IMG/VR virus record: IMGVR_UViG_3300030012_004234
Span: 6,786 to 70,785 of that record
Length of the DNA: 64,000 nt
Source: a virus
Direction: 5' to 3' (one strand)
The position numbers and the translations under genes are program-made. This document shows, piece after piece, positions 40,790-53,618 of the stretch; within the stretch, counting starts at the first letter, position 1, and each line of letters starts with the position of its first letter. The notes under the pieces are model-generated. The model ran no database searches and was not told the origin of the DNA. It saw nothing but the letters and a program-made list of their open reading frames with translations.

Positions 40790-42388
40790 TTATAAATCAT
40801 TCATATCTGAAATAAAGACTTTTCCGTAGAATTCAGGTCTTATCATCTTCTTAGCATATCTAGTCATGATACCTTTTCTTGGAGTGAAGGTCTCAGGATC
40901 GTATACTAGAGGAGTCATAAGTAATGGTATATACGGTGAGTAAACCGCTCCAGTTTCTAAGAATTGTGAACCTCTATATCCCATAAGAATAATATTCTCA
41001 GTCATATAAGGGTTTTTGTAAACTCTGAATCTGTTAGCTAAGCTTCCTACTCTTTGTACACCAAAGTTGAAATCAGCCTGATCTCCGTCTGTATTAGCTG
41101 CATATCCTGGAATAGATTCTAGAATAGTAGCAACGTTTGGAGAACATACTAAGAAGTTCGCACCACCTCTAAGAGTTTTTTGGTGAATCTTATTAGATAC
41201 TTTTTGGATTTTAGTTCCTAAAGTTTGGAACCACTGTCCTTGAGTATTATAAAATCCTGGACTTAAAGTAGCCCAAGCTGTACCATTCCAAACTTTGTTT
41301 GAAACGACAGACCATCTCTCAGTAGTTACTGCGTCATTAATAAGCATGTCTAGGATCTCAAGATCAATCTCCATTGAGATATACTCACTCAATAAAGAAG
41401 TTAACTCAGCCTCAGCGTCGATGCTGTGGTATGCGTTAAGATCTTGAGCGAATTCTGGAGTCCATTGTGCTTTTAGTTTTCTAGTTTTAGCAACAATTGC
41501 TTCACTAGCTAATCTTACGTCGATAGACGGGATTTTAATAGATGTGTCAACAGCAGCAGTTGAATTTGCTTCGAAGTCACCTCTTGCGTTATCATCTGGT
41601 TGTACGTGATATAATACAGTAGAAGCAGGATTCTTAACTGTTAGGTTAGATGCAGTTACAACGAAAGTAACGTCATCACCAGATACAGTAGTTAATTCTG
41701 GGTTACTAGTAATATCTACAGAAGCAGAAAATAATCTAAATGCTCTAACTGCTTTATAATCAGGTCTTGCACCAGCGGCTTTTCCTGACATATCAGCTGT
41801 AACAGTTCTAAATTCTGATACGATTAGATCATCATTGTATCCAATTGAAGAAGAAACAGCAGATCCAGTAGTAATAGTTTCAGTGTGTGAAGCTGAATTT
41901 ACTGTATATCCGAATTGTCCAGCGCCATAAAGACCACCAGAAACTTCCTCATCAACAGACATTTTGTTAGAAGCAGAAGATACATTACCATACAAGTTAT
42001 CACCAGCTGTTCTTCCTCCTACAGAGTCTCCATATTTGAAGTCTAGGTAGAATACAAGTCCTGAAGGTAAATTCATTGGTTGTACAGAAACGAAATCTTG
42101 AGCAACGATTTGAGCAAATACTTTTCTAACTAAAGGTAGAGCTACACCAGCCCAGTTCTCACCAGCTCCAGCAGTGAAAGTAGCAGACCCTCCGTGACCG
42201 GAAGTGTTTGCTTCAGCAACGATTTGTTTAGCTTGGTTTTCTAAGATAACAGCCATGTTATTTTTGACTCTATTATCTTCGATACCTTCTAACAAACCAG
42301 ATGCTTCCCACTTAGAAGCTAATTTTTCAGAATCCTTTAGCATGCTCTTATAAGTATTTGAGCTCTCTAATAGGTTGTTAATTTCCAT
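40790..42388 (-). CDS. gp23: Major capsid protein (T4 gp23-like)
   Basis: VSVQPMNLPSGLVF, AKTRKLKAQWTPEFAQDLNAYHSIDAEAEL, YSPYIPL, FTPRKGIMTRYA; likely propeptide cleavage at IVAE59|A. Confidence 0.98.
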   Translation of the reverse strand: MEINNLLESSNTYKSMLKDSEKLASKWEASGLLEGIEDNRVKNNMAVILENQAKQIVAEANTSGHGGSATFTAGAGENWAGVALPLVRKVFAQIVAQDFVSVQPMNLPSGLVFYLDFKYGDSVGGRTAGDNLYGNVSSASNKMSVDEEVSGGLYGAGQFGYTVNSASHTETITTGSAVSSSIGYNDDLIVSEFRTVTADMSGKAAGARPDYKAVRAFRLFSASVDITSNPELTTVSGDDVTFVVTASNLTVKNPASTVLYHVQPDDNARGDFEANSTAAVDTSIKIPSIDVRLASEAIVAKTRKLKAQWTPEFAQDLNAYHSIDAEAELTSLLSEYISMEIDLEILDMLINDAVTTERWSVVSNKVWNGTAWATLSPGFYNTQGQWFQTLGTKIQKVSNKIHQKTLRGGANFLVCSPNVATILESIPGYAANTDGDQADFNFGVQRVGSLANRFRVYKNPYMTENIILMGYRGSQFLETGAVYSPYIPLLMTPLVYDPETFTPRKGIMTRYAKKMIRPEFYGKVFISDMNDL

Positions 42389-42413: not shown

Positions 42414-43619
42414 TTATTTAATAATACCGGCTAATTTTTGCATTCTTCTAACAGTTTCAGAAACTTCATTAATTACTTCTGGTTTACCAGATGCAGTAGT
42501 TCCTGTTGCTTTAGATGCCATGCCTAGTTTAGTCTTAGCTTCTTTGATATTGTTTTTAGTTTCTTTTTTACTAACAACATTATCTGAAACTGTTTCATAA
42601 ACTAATTTAACCTCTTTTACAGTTTCTGCTTTATCAAAAGCAGCTATAATGTTAACCTTTTGACTTTCAGAAAGGTCGTTTGATTTAAAGATTTTGTTAA
42701 CGTAAAGTAATTTTGAATTTAGAATATTTACTTCATTCAATTCACTTTTAAGAGTTTTGATAGTCTCTAAAGCTTGAGCTAGTTCTGATTTGCTTTCTTC
42801 TAATGCTTGTTCTTCAGCATCTCCGATAACACCTTCAGCTTCTTTCTCAACTTCATTGAAATCCTCTTCACCGTCTTTATCTTCGTTAATATTTACGTCT
42901 ACCTTCTGTCTGTGGTTATCAGCATTAGGTTTAGCATTGAACTCGTCTAATTCTTCTTCACTTACTGAAGATTCAAGTTCTCTAATTAACTCATCAAGAT
43001 CGATTTCTTCCTCGTCCTCACCAGGCATGTCCATTGGTTCTTCTACAGCATCAGGCTCATCACCCATACCTTCGATATCACCAGCATCCATATCCATAGC
43101 AGGCTCTTCGTCAGCGCCCATTTCTTGACTAATAATATCTCTAATTAAGTCTTTGAATTGATCTACACTTAAATCAGAAATATCCTCATCACCTTTAGGC
43201 TCGTCTTCAACCTCCGCTTCGTCCTCAGATTCGTCTGAGTCATCCTCCGCTTCGTTTTTTTCATCGTCAGCATGCATTGCTTCGTCTTTATTGTCTCCGT
43301 GAGCTTCCTCCATATCGTCGTCATGTTTAGCTTCTTCTACTTCTTCAAGAGATTCTTCCATGTTATCTTTCTCCTTCTTAGGAGCTTCTTCCATGTTGTC
43401 TTTCTCTTTCTTAGGAGCCTCTTCCATAGTTTCGTCGTCTTTTTTCTTAGGCGCTTCTTCTATTTTAGAATCTTCCATTTCTTGTAGTTTTGCAGCTAAC
43501 ATATCTTTTAAATGTGGAGTTAGAGTTTCTTCTAATGCTTCCTTAGCGTTAGCAATAGCAGCAGCTCTTACAGACTTAGCTTCAGCAATAGCTTGCTTAA
43601 ATAAATCTTTGTTTGCCAT
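42414..43619 (-). CDS. Prohead scaffolding/core protein (gp22 analogue)
   Basis: Highly acidic, coiled-coil, between protease and MCP; LNEVNILNSKLLY, FDKAETVKEVKL, RMQKLAGI; many [LMVI]xE sites. Confidence 0.85.
   Translation of the reverse strand: MANKDLFKQAIAEAKSVRAAAIANAKEALEETLTPHLKDMLAAKLQEMEDSKIEEAPKKKDDETMEEAPKKEKDNMEEAPKKEKDNMEESLEEVEEAKHDDDMEEAHGDNKDEAMHADDEKNEAEDDSDESEDEAEVEDEPKGDEDISDLSVDQFKDLIRDIISQEMGADEEPAMDMDAGDIEGMGDEPDAVEEPMDMPGEDEEEIDLDELIRELESSVSEEELDEFNAKPNADNHRQKVDVNINEDKDGEEDFNEVEKEAEGVIGDAEEQALEESKSELAQALETIKTLKSELNEVNILNSKLLYVNKIFKSNDLSESQKVNIIAAFDKAETVKEVKLVYETVSDNVVSKKETKNNIKEAKTKLGMASKATGTTASGKPEVINEVSETVRRMQKLAGIIK
43353..43460 (-). repeat. 33-36 bp tandem coding repeat (MEEAPKKEKDN) x3 in scaffold
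   Basis: ttcttccatgtt.tctttctc.ttcttaggagc at 43353 and 43386, with a degenerate third unit from 43419. Confidence 0.9.
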
Positions 43620-43741: not shown

Positions 43742-43763
43742 TTATGCTCTTAATATATTGTTA
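43742..43763 (-). repeat. Relic duplicate of the prohead protease 3' end (19/22 nt identical to 44336..44357)
   Basis: AAC AAT ATA TTA AGA GCA TAA (NNILRA*) versus AAC GAT ATT TTG AGA GCA TAA (NDILRA*). Confidence 0.85.
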
Positions 43764-44336
43764 CTCGGGAATTCTCCAATCATCAATATCATCACCTCGT
43801 CTTTCGGTTTGAGGAAATAGATAATCTAAATAATTATCCCATTGATCATCATAATCTTCATATCCGCTTTCTTCTTGATAATAACTAGCTATCAATTTAC
43901 CGATATCAGAAGCAGGTTCATTAAAATAATCGGATACATCTTCAGCATCTTCCCAAGTTGCAGCTGCTTTCATAAAACTAACTATTTCTTCATCTTCAAA
44001 ATCATCAAACCCATTTTGTTGTTGCATTATGTCGTATACTTCACCAGCTAGATTTTCATCTTTAACTTCAGGAAATTTTTTCGCAAAATCATCAAAATCA
44101 AGATCACTTGAGTTTTCATCGTCGTCTCCATTCCGTGGACCAGAAAGGTACACCCATTTTCCGTCAGGAAGTTTTGCATGTTTTTGGCCATAGTTACTAT
44201 TATAAAATTCGGTTCCTTCTGGGAATTCGTCTTTGTTTATTTCACTCCATCGTTTAAATTTATCTTCTGAGATTAATTTGCTTTGAGTAGTAAGTTTGTT
44301 TTCTACTAAAAATTTTCTTAAATTAAAGTTTTTCAT
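43761..44336 (-). CDS. Acidic putative internal head (cargo) protein with MKNFNLRKFLVEN leader
   Basis: Leader shared with 44937..45245 and 53337..53618; D/E- and aromatic-rich body. Confidence 0.7.
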   Translation of the reverse strand: MKNFNLRKFLVENKLTTQSKLISEDKFKRWSEINKDEFPEGTEFYNSNYGQKHAKLPDGKWVYLSGPRNGDDDENSSDLDFDDFAKKFPEVKDENLAGEVYDIMQQQNGFDDFEDEEIVSFMKAAATWEDAEDVSDYFNEPASDIGKLIASYYQEESGYEDYDDQWDNYLDYLFPQTERRGDDIDDWRIPE

Positions 44337-44914
44337 TATGCTCTCAAAATATCGTTAATAATATTGTCTAAATTAAAATACTTAGATACTTTACCTTTAC
44401 CTTCATTTAATGATACCGGGTTCATAAATGCACCATGTGTAGATGGATTAGATACAAAGTCCCAGCATACTAGTTCAAAATCAGGCTGTACTTCTAAATG
44501 TCCTTCGTTTGTTTGTTGGACTGATCCGGTACCTCTAGATGATATACCAATAGTATGACCAGCTTTTATAATTTCTTTTACTATATTACCAGCAGGAGTA
44601 TTTAATAGCTCTACCTTACCCATTAAGTCATCACCATCCCAATATAGTTCTTTTACTATGTGAGAAGCGTTTTTTAACGAGACTACGGGCGTTTCAGGAT
44701 GATCTAACTCTCCAAAAGCATTTCCTTTTTTGACGAACTCTTTCACGTATCTTTCCGCTTCTCTCTTAAGAAGATCTTTACTGTATACTCTACCGTTTTG
44801 ATTCTCTGCTGAAGCTCTTTGCATTACTCCTTCAACTTCAAATACACCAGGTTTGGTTTTTGATTCCTTTAAAGTAGGTTTAAAAGGTGTTACGTCTACT
44901 AATAATTGTGCCAT
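44336..44914 (-). CDS. gp21: Prohead protease (T4 gp21-like)
   Basis: NQNGRVYS, GELDHP, SH, TPAG.I, GISSRGTGS, DFVSNPS..GA. Confidence 0.97.
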   Translation of the reverse strand: MAQLLVDVTPFKPTLKESKTKPGVFEVEGVMQRASAENQNGRVYSKDLLKREAERYVKEFVKKGNAFGELDHPETPVVSLKNASHIVKELYWDGDDLMGKVELLNTPAGNIVKEIIKAGHTIGISSRGTGSVQQTNEGHLEVQPDFELVCWDFVSNPSTHGAFMNPVSLNEGKGKVSKYFNLDNIINDILRA

Positions 44915-44936: not shown

Positions 44937-45245
44937 TTAGTATCTCCAGTATTTACTTAAACCGTATCTTTCTAATTTATCATTACCATGTTCAACATCA
45001 TCTGGTAGAATATAATCATCAATTTCCTCAGCAGATGTATTATTATCAAATATAAAAACATCAGCATTACTTATAATAAGGTCTTGTTCTCTATCAGATA
45101 GTAACTCATCGTAAGCTTCGTAATCAGTCATATCATCATCCTGGTAAACGATTGTAAAAGGTTTATCACTTATTTTTTTAGGCGTAAATTCTTCTTTTAA
45201 TAAGCGATTTTCTGCCAAATATTTTCTTAGATTAAAATTTTTCAT
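44937..45245 (-). CDS. Acidic putative internal head (cargo) protein with MKNFNLRKYLAEN leader
   Basis: Shared leader; about a quarter of residues are D/E by manual count. Confidence 0.7.
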   Translation of the reverse strand: MKNFNLRKYLAENRLLKEEFTPKKISDKPFTIVYQDDDMTDYEAYDELLSDREQDLIISNADVFIFDNNTSAEEIDDYILPDDVEHGNDKLERYGLSKYWRY

Positions 45246-47593: not shown

Positions 47594-47824
47594 CTATAAA
47601 TAGTCAAATGCTTTAGTATGATATGGCCTATCTGGACGGCTTATTTTTTTGAAACCTAGACTCTTTGAAACTTTAAGAGCTTTTTTTGCTTTACCAAAAG
47701 CGCCCGGTGTTGCATAATTTTCTCCAGCACCAGGAGTAAAAGAAGCAGATCCGCCAGATACGTTTGCTTCTTGCAATTCAGATAGTACTTCTCTTACTAA
47801 TTGAATTACTTGAGACCTTGTCAT
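47594..47824 (-). CDS. Small head-associated protein carrying a copy of the MCP mature N-terminus motif
   Basis: LQE|ANVSGGSASFTPGAGENYA versus MCP VAE|ANTSGHGGSATFTAGAGENWA. Confidence 0.7.
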   Translation of the reverse strand: MTRSQVIQLVREVLSELQEANVSGGSASFTPGAGENYATPGAFGKAKKALKVSKSLGFKKISRPDRPYHTKAFDYL

Positions 47825-48675
47825 AAGTTTTTTAATTCATTAACAAGATCGTAATATTGCATAAGATTAACTAAATGAGTATCATTTACTTTTTCAGTTT
47901 TAGCTAAAGGAGTAATATTTTTTACTACTTCCTGTAGTTTAATCTTAACAACATCATCTTTTACTTTTGCAATTAATTTATTAACTTCTTTTAAAATATT
48001 ATCAAATTCTTTATTTACTAATTTATAAAGTCTACGATTAGAGTTTACTGATGTAATAAATTCTTTAAGAATATTTTTTTGTTCAGGTAATAAATCTTTA
48101 TACTTATCATTAAATTTTTCTAATAAAATTTTAAATGTAAGCATTTTTAAATCTTTGTCGTATTTACTGTAGTCTTCTATTAAACTGTCTTTAACAGCAT
48201 CTTTTTCCTGAGGATTAGAAGTTAGATGTTCTAAAATAGTAAACTTATTATCAACTAAAAATTGAGGGTCTACTAAATTACTATTATTCTGAGCTTCTAA
48301 TAAGCAGTACAGAGCAGCTAGAGGTTTATAAGCTCTAACTTCCATTCCAAAAAACTCTTCTAAATTATAATGTTTTTTAATTTCAGATATAAGCTCATAT
48401 TTTTGAGCTTTTAAAGTTTTTTGATCTAATTTTCTTGAAACTTCAGTAATAGTGGATAAAACAGCTTCTGCTTTACTCTGTATAAGTTTATTATTTTTAA
48501 TAAGGAACTCATATAGTTTATACTCTTTTGCTAAAGTACTTTTATTACTATAGAATTTTTTAAGTATTTCTATAGCTTTTGAGTCTTTATTGTCTAGGGT
48601 ATCTGCTGCTATTTGTTTAACTAACAGTTCAAATATGAGACCAGTATTACGATACTTCGAATGCTTTATCTTCAT
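47821..48675 (-). CDS. Helical head-morphogenesis protein of unknown function, downstream of portal
   Basis: 284 aa, all-helical, MKIKHSKYRNTGLIFELL; TATTTATA at 48692-48699. Confidence 0.6.
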   Translation of the reverse strand: MKIKHSKYRNTGLIFELLVKQIAADTLDNKDSKAIEILKKFYSNKSTLAKEYKLYEFLIKNNKLIQSKAEAVLSTITEVSRKLDQKTLKAQKYELISEIKKHYNLEEFFGMEVRAYKPLAALYCLLEAQNNSNLVDPQFLVDNKFTILEHLTSNPQEKDAVKDSLIEDYSKYDKDLKMLTFKILLEKFNDKYKDLLPEQKNILKEFITSVNSNRRLYKLVNKEFDNILKEVNKLIAKVKDDVVKIKLQEVVKNITPLAKTEKVNDTHLVNLMQYYDLVNELKNL

Positions 48676-48703: not shown

Positions 48704-50599
48704 TTATTTACCTAAATCCTTGATATTGTCTTCTTTTAGTAACTCGCTATCGTCATCTTTAGATTTTTTGAAAACAATATCTTTCAACATATCTTTATTT
48801 TGTAGATAAACTTTCTCTGTAGAGTTGGTTTCCATAACATTATCATTGTCGGAAGGGTAGCCTCCTTTCATGCCTTGCTGACCTAAAGGATCTCTTCCTC
48901 CCATAGGGTTATCATTAGTGCCATATATAGAAGCTTTTTCTCTTGGTCTTCCTCCTTCAGGACCTGGCTGTCCCCACTCAGGTGTATCTTCATACCCTGT
49001 AGGAACTTCTCCTGGACCTGCTCCTTTTGGTGTAGAAGTAGATCTTCTACCGTACATTGAAGCAAGATCATGAGGTGTACCGTAAGTAGTACCTGATTTA
49101 GCTGGGTCATTACCTTCTCCTTCTATCTGTCCTATTCTAAATAGTCTTTTAGAATCTTCTCTAACTAAATCTCTCATTTCATTATACTTATCTTCTGACA
49201 TATCAAATATGTTTTCGTATATATAATCAGATGAGAATAATTTAGTATCTTTCATTTGATTAGCAAGATCAACTTTTTCTTTTAAGAGAGCTACTTTTTC
49301 TTGTTCAAATATAATAGACGGAGTAGTAAGTTTAATTTCAAAGTTAGTTAAACTTTCACCGGTAAATCCTTGAGAATATAAGTGAACTAATGCTATTTTA
49401 GTTAACTCTGATTCCATAATTCGTTGAACTCTTTCAACTGTTCTAGCGAATCTTATATCTTCAGCAGCTAAAGTTGCTTTTCCTTGTAAATCTCCTTCAT
49501 ATCCGAAGTATGCTTTTGGAATCTTAAGTGCTGCAAACATTTTTTGTTGCAAATATTGTACGTCAGTTACACCATCGTAATCTAATCCTTTAGTAGTTTC
49601 AATTCTTGTAGATGTATCTCCTCCTCTAACAGGCAGATAATAATCCTCCATCATATTCTGTAGATTAAATTTAAGGTTATATTGTCCTTGATCATCTACA
49701 TAAGGAGTTTTTTTCATTTGGTTGATAGTTTTTTGCATAAACTGCTCAACTTCATTAGGAGGTACGTTTCCTACATTAATATAGAACATTCTTTTTTCAG
49801 GAGATCTCATTATTCTATGAATTAACATAGCATCTTCCATCAAAGTAACTTGTTTAAATATTTTTCTTGCAGGCTCTAAATAAGATCTACCGTAAGGTAG
49901 GTAATGAGTATCTGAGATTAATCTAAAATGAGCTATTTCGTAATTATCAAATTCAACTATTTTATCGTTCTTTTTTCTTTTAGGTAAATATTGAGGATTT
50001 TGTGATGATGCTAAACCATCTGGATCTAATTGAAAAATAACTTTAGCAGGATTATCTGGATCTTCTCCTTCTCTCCTTACCATATGGTATACGGTATAAG
50101 GTAAAACGTTATAAACTCCAAATTTTTCTGAGATTTCTAGTTTTAAAAAGAAATCACCGTACTTACACATATTTCTAGTCCATGACCATAAGTTAAATTC
50201 TATATTTAAGACATCATAAAATAAGTTATAAAGTACTCTTTGTATATTTTCGTCCGAAGATTTTATAGCTAATATTTCATTTTGGTCATTTTTTACTGTA
50301 GCTTCGTCAGAAAGTATGTCAAGTGCAGAAGCAATTAATGGATCTGTATCCATAGCTTCATAATCTGAGTATAGTTGAATCCTAAGTGTCTGATAATTTA
50401 AATTAGGATTAAATATATTTTTATTATTATAGATATATAATCTAGTAAATCTATCTATTAAGGAATTCGTCTGGTATCTACCTGTTCGTTGTATAGTATT
50501 GACATCAGCTATTTTGAGCTCATTGCCACCTACATTCCTTACTACAACATCTGAGGAAAATAGTCTTCGTAGTCTACCAAAAAGTGAAGTATCTGCCAT
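48704..50599 (-). CDS. gp20: Portal protein (T4 gp20-like)
   Basis: YEAMD.DP.IASALDI..DEA, MEDAMLIHRIMRSPEKRMFYINVGN, MMEDYYLP.RGG...IET, ALKIPK; TATTTATA at 50617-50624. Confidence 0.97.
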   Translation of the reverse strand: MADTSLFGRLRRLFSSDVVVRNVGGNELKIADVNTIQRTGRYQTNSLIDRFTRLYIYNNKNIFNPNLNYQTLRIQLYSDYEAMDTDPLIASALDILSDEATVKNDQNEILAIKSSDENIQRVLYNLFYDVLNIEFNLWSWTRNMCKYGDFFLKLEISEKFGVYNVLPYTVYHMVRREGEDPDNPAKVIFQLDPDGLASSQNPQYLPKRKKNDKIVEFDNYEIAHFRLISDTHYLPYGRSYLEPARKIFKQVTLMEDAMLIHRIMRSPEKRMFYINVGNVPPNEVEQFMQKTINQMKKTPYVDDQGQYNLKFNLQNMMEDYYLPVRGGDTSTRIETTKGLDYDGVTDVQYLQQKMFAALKIPKAYFGYEGDLQGKATLAAEDIRFARTVERVQRIMESELTKIALVHLYSQGFTGESLTNFEIKLTTPSIIFEQEKVALLKEKVDLANQMKDTKLFSSDYIYENIFDMSEDKYNEMRDLVREDSKRLFRIGQIEGEGNDPAKSGTTYGTPHDLASMYGRRSTSTPKGAGPGEVPTGYEDTPEWGQPGPEGGRPREKASIYGTNDNPMGGRDPLGQQGMKGGYPSDNDNVMETNSTEKVYLQNKDMLKDIVFKKSKDDDSELLKEDNIKDLGK

Positions 50600-50626: not shown

Positions 50627-52201
50627 CTATTTTAGTAACCAAGTAATATCTTCAGTACCACCTGGCGTCTTTATAAGATAAGGATTTTCTTTCTTATTTC
50701 CAACTGTTTTTATAACAGCTTGGTTTCTAGCATTCAAATTGCTAAAAGAAGATAATTGAGCTCTAGCTAAATCCATGCCCTGTTGCCTCAATCTTAAAGC
50801 AGTATCTCTAACATATAGAGCTGATGCGCAAGACATAATTAAATCGTCATTATATCTGGTTTGAGCTTGAGCTTTTCCGTTTTTCCATATGAAAACACGC
50901 ATTTCTTGTAATAATCTTTTAGATTGAAACGTAACAGACTTTTCTCTAACGTATTCAATCATTTTTGCTATAACTAAAGGTCGTGTTCTCATAGACATAG
51001 TAAAGCCTGGTACTAGTTTATCTCTTTCATACTTATGCATATAAGATTCAACAGTATCTAATTGATTAGTTGGGCTGTAATATAAGTTTCTATACTCTCT
51101 TTCTAAGATCTGTTCTATAGTAGCCCATCCAATATTAGCATTTTCTACTACTAATAAAGCATCATTATACTCAGATGCTATAGCTACGAGTACATTACCG
51201 AAATCTTTAGGTGCTATTTTACCTTTATATTCAGCTACTTGAACACAATTATCTATATCGAATACATGAAATGCAGAGTAGTCAGTAGAATCTCCTCTAG
51301 CTACGTCTGCACACACCATATATGATTTACTGTAATCAGCAGATTCCCAAATCCATAAATTACCATCAACTCCTCTTCTTTCCATAGGTTCTTTTTCATA
51401 AGTTTGTTCATAGTAAGTCATATCTTCAGGTTCAAATACCGTATCTCCAGAAGCAAGAAAGTCACAATCACATTCTTGACCTGCCATTCTTGGACCTAAA
51501 TCTGCATCTTGTTGTTCTCTCCACTTTTGATCTCTCTCAGGATGAACTGTCCATGGTAATCTTATAGGAATAAAACTATTTTCTTTTACTACTGCTTTTT
51601 CCCATGTAAGATGAAACCAGTTACCTACACCATTAGGAGTAGATAAAGCCATACATTGACCACCTGTAGCTAATGTTTGTTGTGCTGCAGTAAACGTTTC
51701 ATCAATATTATCTATAAACGCCGCCTCATCAATTAGAAGTAATGATACTGCTTCTGATCTTGCTGCATCAGTATTAGAAGACTTAGCTGCTATTCTTGAT
51801 CCATTTTTTAATCTTAATGATAATTTATTTTTTTCTACTGAGGGTAGTTTCAACCATTTAGGAAGCTGGTCATACATAAAGATAACTTTAGTAACTAAGT
51901 TTCTAGCTGTAGCTTGAGTAGTTGCTAATGCTAATACGTTTTTATCTTTATGAAATATCATTAACCAGAGAGAATAAGCTGCTGATAATGTAGATATACC
52001 TAGCTGTCTTGACTTTAAAGTAATGACATATTGATTATCTTTGAATACATGAAGTATTTTTTCTTGAAAAGGGTATAAGTTAAAAAGAATCCTACCTCTA
52101 GTAGGGTGCTGAATATAGCAGTACTTTCTCATAAAGTACGCCGGATCTTTAGCGCACTTAAGATACTCTTGTGCGATTATTTTTTTTATATCTTGTGCCA
52201 T
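50627..52201 (-). CDS. gp17: Large terminase subunit (T4 gp17-like)
   Basis: LKSRQLGIST (Walker A), LLIDEAAF (Walker B), STPNG, QE.DC.F, DVARG, NDDLIM; no intein evident. Confidence 0.97.
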   Translation of the reverse strand: MAQDIKKIIAQEYLKCAKDPAYFMRKYCYIQHPTRGRILFNLYPFQEKILHVFKDNQYVITLKSRQLGISTLSAAYSLWLMIFHKDKNVLALATTQATARNLVTKVIFMYDQLPKWLKLPSVEKNKLSLRLKNGSRIAAKSSNTDAARSEAVSLLLIDEAAFIDNIDETFTAAQQTLATGGQCMALSTPNGVGNWFHLTWEKAVVKENSFIPIRLPWTVHPERDQKWREQQDADLGPRMAGQECDCDFLASGDTVFEPEDMTYYEQTYEKEPMERRGVDGNLWIWESADYSKSYMVCADVARGDSTDYSAFHVFDIDNCVQVAEYKGKIAPKDFGNVLVAIASEYNDALLVVENANIGWATIEQILEREYRNLYYSPTNQLDTVESYMHKYERDKLVPGFTMSMRTRPLVIAKMIEYVREKSVTFQSKRLLQEMRVFIWKNGKAQAQTRYNDDLIMSCASALYVRDTALRLRQQGMDLARAQLSSFSNLNARNQAVIKTVGNKKENPYLIKTPGGTEDITWLLK

Positions 52202-52203
52202 AA

Positions 52204-53337
52204 CTATTTAATTTTTTCAAACTTTCCATCTTTCAACAAATATATATTAGAAGAACGGTAAGCTACAGCTTTAGTCATTGCAATAGCTTCATTATTTTGA
52301 ATACCGAACATTGTTCTATCTCCTCTATAAGCTGCTGTGAGGTAAGGAGTATACTCTCCTTTAGGTATATTTGGTGGAAGAAGTACATGTTCTCCAGATA
52401 ATTCATATTTATTATCTCCTATCTTTTCAAACTCTACTTCACCTTGAATGACTATATTTACATTTTCTTTACTATTAGGTTTCCCATATTCAGGTCCAAA
52501 GATCAAAAGTTTAATAAGTTCTTTATCTTTAATTGGAGCAATAAATCTTGTTTTATTGGGAAGTCCTTCTAGGTTATTATCAACCAGAAATTTTTTGAGG
52601 CCGTTATTAAAAGCTACAACTTCTGGATGATCAGCATAAGCGGTGTATCCGCTCCATCTTATAAAGTCAGATGCAGCTGGTCCTTTACTTCCTGCTTTTT
52701 TATGAGAAATAAATACTACAGGGTTACCTTTTTCGTCTAATAAATTAAAATCAGATTTAGGCATTCCTGATTGAGTTTCTGCAGAACCTATTTTGTATGC
52801 TTTTCCGTTGACTACTACGTCAATAGTACCTCCTTCAACATCTATGAGGCTGTTTAATTTTTTTTTAAGAATGTATAGATTCTCATCTTCTACTACTGTT
52901 CCTGATCCTGCTCCTTTACCTCCAAATTCTGGTGTTTTTAAAAGATCATTTAGTGAAACAGAATTGTTTTCAGAATCTATAAAGAAAGGAAAATTATTAA
53001 CTCTACTGCCTGCTATTTTTCTAATACCGTCTAAATCTCTATTTTTAAATAGATCGGCGTATTCTTCTGAGGCAAATTTTAATTTTACTTCACTACCATC
53101 AGTGTTGTAGAAAGAATCATTCGACTGTACCATATCATAAAACTTAACCAATCTAGGAGCCCCTCTTTTAATAAGTTCAGAAAATTTAAGTACTCTATAT
53201 CCCTTATCTAAAACCTCTATTAGGTCTATTCCAAACATAGACTCAAATAACCTTAAATCATCTTCGTTATTAAGGTCAGGATATCCTTTTTTGGTTCTAT
53301 ATGACCATTCTAATATTACTCTATCTATAAGATTCAT
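52204..53337 (-). CDS. PD-(D/E)xK restriction-endonuclease-like protein with N-terminal leader
   Basis: E.E...PKSDF..(10)..FISHK...F.RWSG; leader MNLIDRVILE.WSYR..KGYPD. Confidence 0.6.
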   Translation of the reverse strand: MNLIDRVILEWSYRTKKGYPDLNNEDDLRLFESMFGIDLIEVLDKGYRVLKFSELIKRGAPRLVKFYDMVQSNDSFYNTDGSEVKLKFASEEYADLFKNRDLDGIRKIAGSRVNNFPFFIDSENNSVSLNDLLKTPEFGGKGAGSGTVVEDENLYILKKKLNSLIDVEGGTIDVVVNGKAYKIGSAETQSGMPKSDFNLLDEKGNPVVFISHKKAGSKGPAASDFIRWSGYTAYADHPEVVAFNNGLKKFLVDNNLEGLPNKTRFIAPIKDKELIKLLIFGPEYGKPNSKENVNIVIQGEVEFEKIGDNKYELSGEHVLLPPNIPKGEYTPYLTAAYRGDRTMFGIQNNEAIAMTKAVAYRSSNIYLLKDGKFEKIK

Positions 53338-53618
53338 TAGTCTCTTTTTAGATCTTGTTCTGGCATATCGATATCATCAGGATTTTTTTCAAAGCTTGTA
53401 TTAGTTAAAGTATATTCAACTTTTCTTACATTTTTACCATCTTTGTCTCTGACATATACCTCTACTCCTGCAATTGCTCCTAATTTAATTAGATCATCAA
53501 GTTGATCTCCTGATATTCCTATACCGGTAGGGGCCATTTCTTCATCTAATTTAGATTCATCCATAGTGGCCACTTTATTTTCAATTAAAAATTTTCTAAG
53601 ATCAAAATTATTTTTCAT
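53337..53618 (-). CDS. Small putative internal head protein with MKNNFDLRKFLIEN leader
   Basis: Shared leader followed by MDE/LDE sites. Confidence 0.7.
   Translation of the reverse strand: MKNNFDLRKFLIENKVATMDESKLDEEMAPTGIGISGDQLDDLIKLGAIAGVEVYVRDKDGKNVRKVEYTLTNTSFEKNPDDIDMPEQDLKRD

What the first reader, a model, noticed from the sequence alone, without database searches (positions are those of the whole stretch)
47711..47770. 76-aa protein carries a mimic of the mature major-capsid N-terminus
Seen: E|ANVSG--GSASFTPGAGENYA in the 76-aa ORF aligns with E|ANTSGHGGSATFTAGAGENWA of the MCP (42149-42214), starting exactly at the predicted MCP maturation site (E59; T4 gp23 is cut after E65). The mimic is followed by a basic tail. 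Inference: a mini-protein that supplies MCP-like N-arms in trans, for example at the portal vertex where MCP neighbours are missing, or that tethers DNA or cargo to the inner wall.
Basis: partly seen in the sequence, partly recalled or inferred. Interest (0 to 1): 0.7.

Follow-up and report, generated by a model that had tools for sequence, protein, structure and literature searches.

The report
Small head protein copying capsid N-terminus
A tiny, very basic protein encoded next to the portal gene of an abundant marine T4-like phage carries a stretch that copies the start of the mature major capsid protein, and this likeness is kept by selection across a large unannotated gene family, which points to a new way of placing a peptide in a virus head.

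Summary
The 76-aa ORF (47594-47824, minus strand) and the gp23-like capsid protein share 16 of 24 residues starting at a hydrophobic-x-Glu site. Family profiles match at 96% probability.

The gene is real:
- It is single-copy and sits in the portal-to-protease head module.
- Its start overlaps the stop of a conserved 284-aa gene.
- It belongs to a family of at least 300 clusters at 50% identity, with no Pfam or PHROGs match.

The likeness is held at protein level. Codon sharing is no higher for cognate pairs than for non-cognate ones.

In three deep clades the module resembles its own capsid protein best. Three other clades carry a short module with almost no likeness. Sister-pair tests are mixed.

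Best reading: a protease-cut, DNA-binding head-interior peptide. Its capsid-like segment docks on whatever holds the capsid protein's N-terminus in the prohead.

No cleavage, packaging or binding was measured. The scan had not reported this family on other DNA.

The parts
47594..47824 (-). 76-aa gene (stop included): leader helix, cut site, MCP-like segment, Y-[AS]-T-P-x-A-F hallmark, basic tail
   Evidence: ORF. Exact protein seen on 129 contigs. 300 family clusters at E<=0.001. pN/pS 0.35. Pieces of contigs from two metatranscriptome libraries cover it and both gene junctions; this shows presence in RNA libraries, not proven transcription.
47768..47824 (-). Leader, residues 1-19, ending in L-Q-E: predicted propeptide
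   Evidence: AF2 models a helix at 3-22 with pLDDT 73-83. P3 is L or M and P1 is E in all 34 homologues. Similar leaders head other head-module proteins in related loci. Cleavage itself is inferred.
47711..47767 (-). MCP-like segment, residues 20-38 (ANVSGGSASFTPGAGENYA)
   Evidence: BLASTP and hhalign. Modelled as coil with pLDDT about 50.
47597..47710 (-). Residues 39-76: rest of the family hallmark and the lysine/arginine-rich tail with a conserved C-terminal RP-x-RP...DYL end
   Evidence: Alignment A2. Charge and pI. The C-terminal end is clade-specific, whereas the hallmark is found across clades.
40790..42388 (-). Major capsid protein, gp23 family
   Evidence: Pfam PF07068 at 3.3e-81 and PHROG 138.
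42149..42214 (-). MCP residues 59-80: predicted maturation site (E59) and first 21 residues of the mature protein; counterpart of the T4 N-fist
   Evidence: Position relative to a Tevenvirinae gp23. N-fist defined in passages of PMC7136217 and PMC9958956.
44336..44914 (-). gp21-like prohead serine protease (S77), the presumed processing enzyme
   Evidence: Pfam PF03420 at 7.3e-33 and PHROG 207.
47821..48675 (-). Conserved 284-aa all-helical protein whose stop overlaps the small gene's start (ATGA)
   Evidence: A homologue lies just upstream of the module gene in 90 loci. In a further clade it is directly adjacent in 10 of 22 loci and 280-772 nt away in the rest. AF2 model pLDDT 81 with no Foldseek PDB match at E<=0.001.
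48704..50599 (-). gp20-like portal protein
   Evidence: Pfam PF07230 at 6.3e-72.
42414..43619 (-). Acidic 401-aa scaffold-like protein directly upstream of the MCP: candidate shared partner
   Evidence: Position and composition. Many hydrophobic-x-E sites. Role inferred from position; no family hit.

Best explanation
The 76-aa gene encodes a small core component of the prohead of a marine T4-like phage related to Flavobacterium phage immuto.

Proposed sequence of events:
1. It is made together with the upstream 284-aa protein and enters the prohead.
2. The gp21-like protease cuts it after E19.
3. This leaves a 57-residue, strongly basic peptide that stays with the DNA.

Its first ~20 residues after the cut copy the first ~20 residues of the mature capsid protein. 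I read this copy as a docking element. In the prohead it would occupy the same site on the core (scaffold, protease or another core protein) that holds the capsid protein's N-terminal segment. The peptide would thus be placed and processed like a capsid subunit.

Shown here:
- the gene, its conservation and its position;
- the likeness and its maintenance at protein level;
- the cut-site motif;
- the basic charge.

Inferred, not shown: cleavage, packaging, retention, and the identity of the docking partner.
For: Head-module context. The gene order is TerL, gp20 portal, 284-aa gene, this gene, a variable gene, S77 protease, scaffold-like gene, gp23 MCP. The same order is seen in phage immuto.

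Core gene.
- There is one module gene per genome record, and the MCP N-terminus is the only other hit.
- All 90 loci that hold the 284-aa homologue and the protease carry it. In 71 it is a small protein; in 19 it is part of a 158-543-aa protein.

Cut site. Hydrophobic-x-E precedes the segment in all 34 small proteins and all 46 MCPs. The leader is 19 aa, within the 10-20 aa of T4 capsid-targeting propeptides (passages of PMC5694885).

Likeness kept by selection, not by DNA exchange.
- Identical residues use the same codon in 173/425 cognate comparisons versus 6437/15736 non-cognate ones (0.407 vs 0.409).
- The two DNA stretches in the window differ at most synonymous sites.
- pN/pS of the segment is 0.36.

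Clade-level tracking is shown.

A portable module. It occurs at the N-terminus, inside, or at the C-terminal end of proteins of 50-480 aa.

T4 precedent. gp23 residues 66-105 lie inside the unexpanded head and probably touch the scaffolding core, and length mutations map there (passages of PMC9546572).

Not a general protease requirement. Other candidate cut sites in the window's head proteins have unrelated residues after the Glu.
Against: - No partner is identified, and no cleavage or packaging has been measured.
- Three clades have a short module that lacks the central 9-10 residues while their MCPs keep a long N-terminus. The full copy is therefore not needed for the family's basic role.
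- Fine-scale tracking is weak in the wider test: 9 up, 6 down, 5 zero (sign p 0.30, Wilcoxon 0.09).
- The shuffle tests ignore relatedness and overstate significance.
- The variable residues that track are small polar ones in a glycine-rich stretch. A pocket on a conserved partner does not obviously require that.
- The window has a different, T4-like short leader on three other head-module proteins. Targeting to the head evidently does not need the MCP-like segment.
Confidence: 0.42

Rival explanations
1. N-fist or N-arm supplied in trans. After cleavage, the peptide's N-terminal segment binds the mature capsid lattice where a neighbouring MCP N-terminus is missing, for example around the portal. 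The basic tail stays inside on the DNA.
For: - The copied stretch corresponds to the T4 N-fist, which staples four subunits. It is disordered in the five subunits that face the portal (passages of PMC7136217 and PMC9958956).
- The gene lies two genes from the portal gene.
- Selection for sameness without gene conversion fits a peptide that must fit the same lattice site as the MCP segment or pair with it.
- No second gp23-family (gp24-like) gene exists in two complete related genomes.
Against: - In T4 the N-fist lies on the outer surface after expansion, so a free internal peptide would have to cross the shell.
- The MCP body that would form the site is nearly invariant, whereas the segment is variable.
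- Short-module clades do without the central part.
- The module is fused to varied extra domains in other clades, which fits a tag or anchor better than a lattice patch.
Confidence: 0.2
2. A shared substrate determinant. The residues after the Glu make the small protein and the MCP equally good or equally timed substrates of the S77 protease, or make the small protein a competing substrate that paces MCP maturation.
For: - The likeness starts a few residues before the predicted scissile bond and runs downstream in both proteins.
- Both carry hydrophobic-x-E.
- The protease gene is in the same module.
Against: - Other candidate sites in the scaffold-like protein, the three leader-bearing proteins and the large head proteins have unrelated downstream residues.
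- Nothing in the T4 passages I read mentions a requirement for residues downstream of the Glu; that gp21 recognises only a short motif is my recollection, not a call.
- The protease is well conserved (75-88% identity to the window's among the closer loci listed, 47-52% in the deeper clades), while the segment varies freely.
Confidence: 0.15
3. A relic of descent. The gene arose by copying the 5' end of the MCP gene, and the two stretches are each conserved for their own reasons, with no functional link.
For: - The similarity covers propeptide end, cut site and mature start in the same order.
- A 122-aa metagenomic protein joins a complete MCP-type propeptide to a small-protein-type body. It is known from a single 592-nt contig and may be an assembly chimera.
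Against: - Clade-specific states are shared by the two proteins of the same phage, as in L036, L145/L146 and the L152 group.
- Cognate pairs score above non-cognate ones.
Confidence: 0.12
4. A shared modification site. Both new N-termini carry E-x-N-x-S/T, the form of a bacterial N-glycosylation sequon, or another signal read by one modifying enzyme.
For: N-x-S/T follows the Glu in most small proteins and most MCPs of the window's clade.
Against: - Several MCPs and small proteins lack the sequon, for example L038, L058 and the L145 clade.
- The Glu is explained by the protease site.
- No enzyme was linked to it here.
- The sequon rule is recalled from memory, not tested.
Confidence: 0.04

Closest known systems
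Phage T4 internal proteins IPI-III and Alt with their capsid targeting sequence
   Same: A short N-terminal propeptide ending in hydrophobic-x-Glu, removed by the gp21 protease. The products are small and basic and stay in the head with the DNA. The T4 facts come from passages of PMC5694885 and PMC9958956.
   Different: - In T4 the targeting peptide is removed. Here the conserved, MCP-like part lies after the cut and is kept.
- T4 internal proteins are accessory and variable, whereas this gene is single-copy and present in every related locus examined.
- No sequence family match.
- The window has its own T4-like short leader on three other proteins.
Phage T4 prohead core proteins gp67 and gp68
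   Same: Small proteins encoded between the portal and protease genes, built into the core and cut by gp21.
   Different: - No similarity: hhalign probability 0.3% to gp67 and 0.1% to gp68 of a Tevenvirinae phage.
- gp67 there is acidic, whereas this peptide is basic.
- That phage shows no copy of the gp23 mature N-terminus in gp20, 21, 22, 24, 67 or 68 (best E 1.1).
N-fist and N-arm of T4 gp23*
   Same: The copied stretch is the positional counterpart of gp23 residues 66-91, the first residues after the maturation cut.
   Different: That element is part of the capsid protein chain. Here a look-alike sits on a separate 76-aa protein. No structure of this lineage's capsid was found in the literature searches that I ran.
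SaPI1 CpmB and phage 80alpha scaffolding protein
   Same: A small protein enters capsid assembly by sharing a binding motif with a regular assembly protein.
   Different: There the scaffold's capsid-binding end is copied, by a parasite element. Here the capsid protein's own end is copied, by the phage itself. I saw only the search listing and abstract of PMC5644958; the motif detail is recalled.
Encapsulin cargo-loading peptides
   Same: Works like: a short glycine/serine-rich peptide, portable between cargo proteins, that docks inside an HK97-fold shell.
   Different: Encapsulin peptides are not copies of the shell protein and are not generated by a protease. This comparison is recalled, with no call behind it.

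Membership tests
T4-type capsid-targeted internal head proteins (CTS proteins) | N-terminal propeptide of about 10-20 residues | tested here: met
   19-residue leader, modelled as a helix. The length range comes from passages of PMC5694885.
T4-type capsid-targeted internal head proteins (CTS proteins) | Propeptide ends in a hydrophobic-x-Glu site for a gp21-type protease encoded by the same phage | tested here: met
   L-Q-E at residues 17-19; the same pattern in 34 of 34 homologues. The S77 protease gene is at 44336-44914. This is the motif only; cleavage was not measured.
T4-type capsid-targeted internal head proteins (CTS proteins) | Protein is packaged in the head and cut during maturation | not testable with these tools
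   Needs prohead and virion mass spectrometry.
T4-type capsid-targeted internal head proteins (CTS proteins) | Sequence relationship to T4 IPs or their PHROG/Pfam families | tested here: not met
   No PHROG or Pfam family at E<=0.1 for the window protein. Seven other members gave only weak hits (E>=0.0046, all below Pfam's cut-offs) to parts outside the module.
T4 prohead core proteins gp67/gp68 | Gene between portal and prohead protease | tested here: met
   T4-like order.
T4 prohead core proteins gp67/gp68 | Sequence similarity to gp67 or gp68 | tested here: not met
   hhalign probability 0.3% and 0.1%.
Major capsid protein Gp23 family (PF07068) | Match to the Gp23 domain | tested here: not met
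   No Pfam hit for the small protein. The shared 26 columns lie at MCP residues 54-81, almost wholly upstream of the Pfam match, which starts at residue 77.
New family defined here (leader, cut site, S/T/G-rich segment, Y-[AS]-T-P-x-A-F, basic tail) | Hallmark motif preceded by a hydrophobic-x-Glu site and followed by a basic stretch | tested here: met
   Window protein and alignment A2. My pattern found the hallmark in 101 of the 150 listed representatives: 83 long form, 18 short form, 49 not matched by the pattern.
New family defined here (leader, cut site, S/T/G-rich segment, Y-[AS]-T-P-x-A-F, basic tail) | Single copy, just downstream of the 284-aa gene in a gp20-gp21-gp23 head module | tested here: met
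   In one clade it is adjacent in 10 of 22 loci and 280-772 nt downstream in the other 12.

The most novel reading that the evidence does not exclude
The peptide is a free-standing copy of the capsid protein's N-terminal staple that co-evolves with it. After the protease cut, its N-terminal segment takes a lattice or core site meant for an MCP N-terminus, while its basic tail holds DNA. Shell and genome would thus be physically linked at defined positions. The same module would be the natural, portable address label by which this large group of marine phages loads or anchors proteins in the head.
Probability: 0.2. Interest if true: 0.8.

Novelty: new variant of a known kind. Interest (0 to 1): 0.62.

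Why it matters
Protease-processed small proteins of phage heads are known from T4. A separate protein that keeps a copy of the capsid protein's own mature N-terminus, under selection and without gene conversion, is not described in the libraries and papers I could search (Pfam, PHROGs, and full-text searches).

The family is large: 300 clusters at 50% identity. The window's exact protein occurs on 129 public contigs. It therefore concerns abundant ocean viruses.

If the copy is a docking signal, it tells us which surface of the prohead reads the capsid protein's N-terminus. That is an open point even in T4, where the segment is invisible in the unexpanded head. It would also offer a compact tag for placing peptides in T4-like capsids.

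If it is a trans-acting staple, it would be a new way of completing an icosahedral lattice.

Tried and rejected
Complex prediction. MCP (alignment A5) plus small protein (alignment A2) returned 'no answer', score 0.00 in two runs, and the controls were not folded. It says nothing either way. Only this pair was tried; the 284-aa protein, scaffold, protease and portal were not.

Gene conversion as the cause of the likeness was rejected. Codon sharing is equal in cognate and non-cognate comparisons, and there are many synonymous differences in the window.

Homology to T4 gp67/gp68 was rejected. A comparable copy in a Tevenvirinae phage was looked for and not found.

The 284-aa neighbour gave a confident all-helical AF2 model, but Foldseek against the PDB gave nothing at E<=0.001. 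The VIA-align libraries were not tried.

The MCP of locus L011 (a long module fused to a larger protein) could not be found, because the record ends before it. The MCP of L010 (a short module next to a long-module sister) could not be found either, because the contig ends.

RNA evidence is weak. Contig pieces from four metatranscriptome libraries lie on the stretch. Two of them (two studies) cover the small gene and its junctions, but DNA carry-over cannot be excluded, so I do not count it as proof of transcription.

Full-text searches for four 7-letter motif strings found 0 papers. A search on N-arm mimicry listed 5 papers, none describing this. A search for phage immuto listed no structural or proteomic study among the 8 shown.

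Rows dropped before counts:
- Identical motif pairs were collapsed: 39 to 30, 59 to 43, 71 to 51, 71 to 53.
- Loci lacking either gene were left out.
-, 94 took only module genes starting within -12 to 150 nt of the 284-aa gene, so the L152-type pairs were absent there and present.

Full report
WHAT IS THERE

The window (30% G+C) carries a T4-type head module on the minus strand. In transcription order it holds:
- large terminase (50627-52201);
- gp20-like portal (48704-50599);
- a 284-aa protein (47821-48675);
- the 76-aa ORF (47594-47824);
- a 779-aa protein;
- a 102-aa protein;
- an S77 gp21-like prohead protease (44336-44914);
- a 191-aa protein;
- an acidic 401-aa scaffold-like protein (42414-43619);
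- a gp23-family major capsid protein, MCP (40790-42388).

The start of the small gene overlaps the stop of the 284-aa gene (ATGA). Its stop lies two bases before the next start. The closest named relatives by MCP are Flavobacterium phage immuto (70% identity), Microcystis phage Mel-JY01 (53%), an uncultured 484-kb phage (50%) and Rhodothermus phage RM378 (35%).

THE OBSERVATION

BLASTP of the small protein against the MCP gives 16 of 24 identical residues, E 7e-7. It aligns small residues 17-38 with MCP residues 57-80. The shared motifs occur nowhere else in six frames of the window.

The stretch begins at L-Q-E in the small protein and V-A-E in the MCP. In a Tevenvirinae gp23 the known cut site L-N-E|A lies at a similar distance from the conserved VRR...VQPM block. 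Passages of PMC9546572 state that 65 residues are removed from T4 gp23.

The part after E19 is 57 aa with pI 10.1 and net charge +7. The maturation site remains a prediction.

A LARGE, UNANNOTATED FAMILY

A word-based search found only 3 close relatives. IMG/VR scans gave 9, then 54, 46 and 19 loci with relatives. An MCP-anchored scan gave 420 relatives, of which 80 were kept.

A profile of 34 homologues searched against 1.84 billion cluster representatives found 300 proteins at E<=0.001 and 50 at E<=1e-10. The window's exact protein is on record from 129 contigs. No Pfam or PHROGs family matches the window protein. Seven other varied members gave only weak, below-threshold hits outside the module.

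Across the family the constant parts are:
- a helical leader;
- a hydrophobic-x-Glu site;
- a Ser/Thr/Gly-rich segment;
- the hallmark Y-[AS]-T-P-x-A-F;
- a lysine/arginine-rich stretch.

The C-terminal RP-x-RP...DYL end of the window protein is clade-specific. The module stands alone in proteins of 50-85 aa. It also sits at the start, inside or at the C-terminal end of proteins up to 484 aa among those whose motif I read out.

It is single-copy. In the window's record and in five other phage records (one rated 100% complete), the profile finds one module gene each. In four of the six records it also finds the MCP N-terminus. The only further hits are two weak leader-only matches.

All 90 loci that hold the 284-aa homologue and the protease have the module gene directly after the 284-aa gene. 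In one further clade it is adjacent in 10 of 22 loci and 280-772 nt downstream in 12.

The gene is under purifying selection in all three parts (pN/pS 0.32-0.36, with pS near saturation). AF2 models a helix at 3-22 and two short helices in the tail. The MCP-like segment is modelled as low-confidence coil.

IS THE LIKENESS MAINTAINED, AND DOES IT TRACK THE MCP?

At family level the small-protein profile and the MCP N-terminal profile match with 96.2% probability, E 2.6e-9, over 26 columns.

The likeness is not due to DNA exchange:
- In the window the two stretches differ at most synonymous positions.
- Over 43 unique pairs, identical residues share a codon in 173 of 425 cognate comparisons and in 6437 of 15736 non-cognate ones (0.407 vs 0.409).

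Cognate pairs are more alike than re-dealt pairs:
- With 30 pairs, 7, 25 and 3 of 5000 shuffles reached the observed values for three measures.
- With 51 pairs, the mean score was 37.3 against 27.7, and 0 of 5000 shuffles reached it.
These shuffles ignore relatedness and overstate significance.

Swap tests on phylogenetically independent sister pairs are mixed:
- 11 up, 3 down, 3 zero, one-sided p 0.029;
- on a wider set and another tree, 9 up, 6 down, 5 zero, sign p 0.30, Wilcoxon 0.09.
The positive contrasts are large (up to 36 score units). The negative ones are small (-1 to -9).

At the level of deep clades, the three clades with a long module each resemble their own clade's MCP best among those three (diagonal 64.2, 44.7, 47.0). 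Each has clade-specific states shared by both proteins. Examples are the L145/L146 pair, the L152 group, and L036, whose small protein and MCP share four otherwise rare residues.

Against this:
- Modules of the L152 group score higher still on the MCPs of a short-module clade (52.0).
- Three clades (immuto-like, L107-like, L135-like) have a short module lacking the central 9-10 residues. Their MCPs keep a long N-terminus, and the scores there are about zero.

Orthologues do track in part, but coupling is neither strict nor universal.

WHAT THE COPIED SEGMENT IS IN T4

Passages of three T4 papers bear on this:
- gp23 residues 66-105 are disordered and inside the unexpanded head, and probably touch the scaffolding core. 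Head-length mutations A66D, A94V and G97S map there (PMC9546572).
- After expansion the region moves to the outer surface. It forms an N-arm and a 25-residue N-fist (residues 66-91) that contacts four subunits (PMC9958956).
- The N-fist is disordered in the five subunits that face the portal (PMC7136217).

The window's shared stretch is the positional counterpart of this N-fist. A Tevenvirinae phage shows no such copy in gp20, 21, 22, 24, 67 or 68. Its gp67 and gp68 are unrelated to the small family. The feature therefore belongs to this marine lineage.

Two complete related genomes have only one gp23-family gene, so no gp24-like vertex paralogue is detectable.

HOW IT MOST LIKELY WORKS

I commit to the following, at about 0.4.
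- The protein is a core component of the prohead, co-translated with the 284-aa protein.
- The protease cuts it after E19 like a T4 capsid-targeted protein.
- The basic 57-residue product stays with the DNA.
- The MCP-like segment lets it sit on the same prohead surface (scaffold, protease or another core protein) that holds the MCP's N-terminal segment.

This reading accounts for the cut-site register, for selection on sameness through a shared and changing partner, and for the portability of the module between proteins.

The segment is not a general protease requirement. Other candidate sites in the window's head proteins differ after the Glu.

Steps shown: gene, family, position, likeness, selection, motif, charge. 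Steps inferred: cleavage, packaging, retention, partner.

Rivals:
- a shared substrate determinant for timing of cleavage (0.15);
- a relic of a partial MCP duplication without coupling (0.12);
- a shared modification sequon (0.04).

A 122-aa metagenomic protein that joins a full MCP-type propeptide to a small-protein-type body would support common descent. It rests on one 592-nt contig.

WHAT FAILED OR WAS NOT POSSIBLE

- The single complex prediction (MCP plus small protein) gave no answer and is not evidence either way.
- Contig pieces from metatranscriptome libraries cover the gene but do not prove transcription.
- Paper supplements were closed.

VERDICT

This is a conserved, single-copy, unannotated family of small head proteins whose post-cleavage start copies the cognate capsid protein's mature N-terminus. 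The copy is kept by selection at protein level in several deep clades and lost in others.

The mechanism is open. It is a new variant of the known kind 'protease-processed internal or core head protein'. It has an unusual and testable feature.

Noticed in passing
window 47821-48675 (-): A 284-aa all-helical protein is conserved directly upstream of the module gene in every clade, with its stop overlapping the module gene's start in the window. The AF2 model is confident (pLDDT 81), but Foldseek finds no PDB match at E<=0.001 and there is no Pfam or PHROGs family. It is a candidate core protein and a possible partner of the small protein.
   Followed up: partly
window 43761-44336, 44937-45245, 53337-53618 (-): Three otherwise unrelated proteins (191, 102 and 93 aa) begin with the same ~12-residue leader ending in hydrophobic-x-E followed by N. 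It looks like a T4-type capsid targeting sequence (seen; noted earlier by the scan as e1-6183492). It differs from the small protein's leader.
   Followed up: partly
protein P0082, single 592-nt ENA contig: A 122-aa predicted protein joins a complete MCP-type propeptide to a small-protein-type module and tail, with the junction inside the shared stretch. It could be a natural recombinant or an assembly chimera.
   Followed up: partly
L009:896-1588, L041:7371-7988, L035:1636-2193, L031:7238-7795 (+): Other head-module proteins of 185-230 aa in related phages start with a leader like that of the small protein (HMM domain E 2e-6 to 2e-3). This leader is therefore also shared between different proteins.
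   Followed up: no
window 47756-47770 and 42200-42214 (-), and homologues: The residues around the predicted cut read E-x-N-x-S/T in most small proteins and MCPs of this clade. That is the form of a bacterial N-glycosylation sequon (rule recalled from memory). Several homologues lack it.
   Followed up: no
records NC_055915.1 and PP395634.1: Complete genomes of phages immuto and Mel-JY01 hold a single gp23-family gene, so a gp24-like vertex paralogue is not detectable. How their pentons are built is open.
   Followed up: partly
window 47712: A contig from one metatranscriptome library differs from the window here (G to A on the plus strand). This would change residue 38 of the small protein, the last residue of the shared stretch, from Ala to Val (the codon reading is mine).
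   Followed up: no
L002:7185-7412 (Mel-JY01): A ribosomal protein S21 gene is annotated inside the head module of Microcystis phage Mel-JY01, between the protease and the scaffold-like gene.
   Followed up: no
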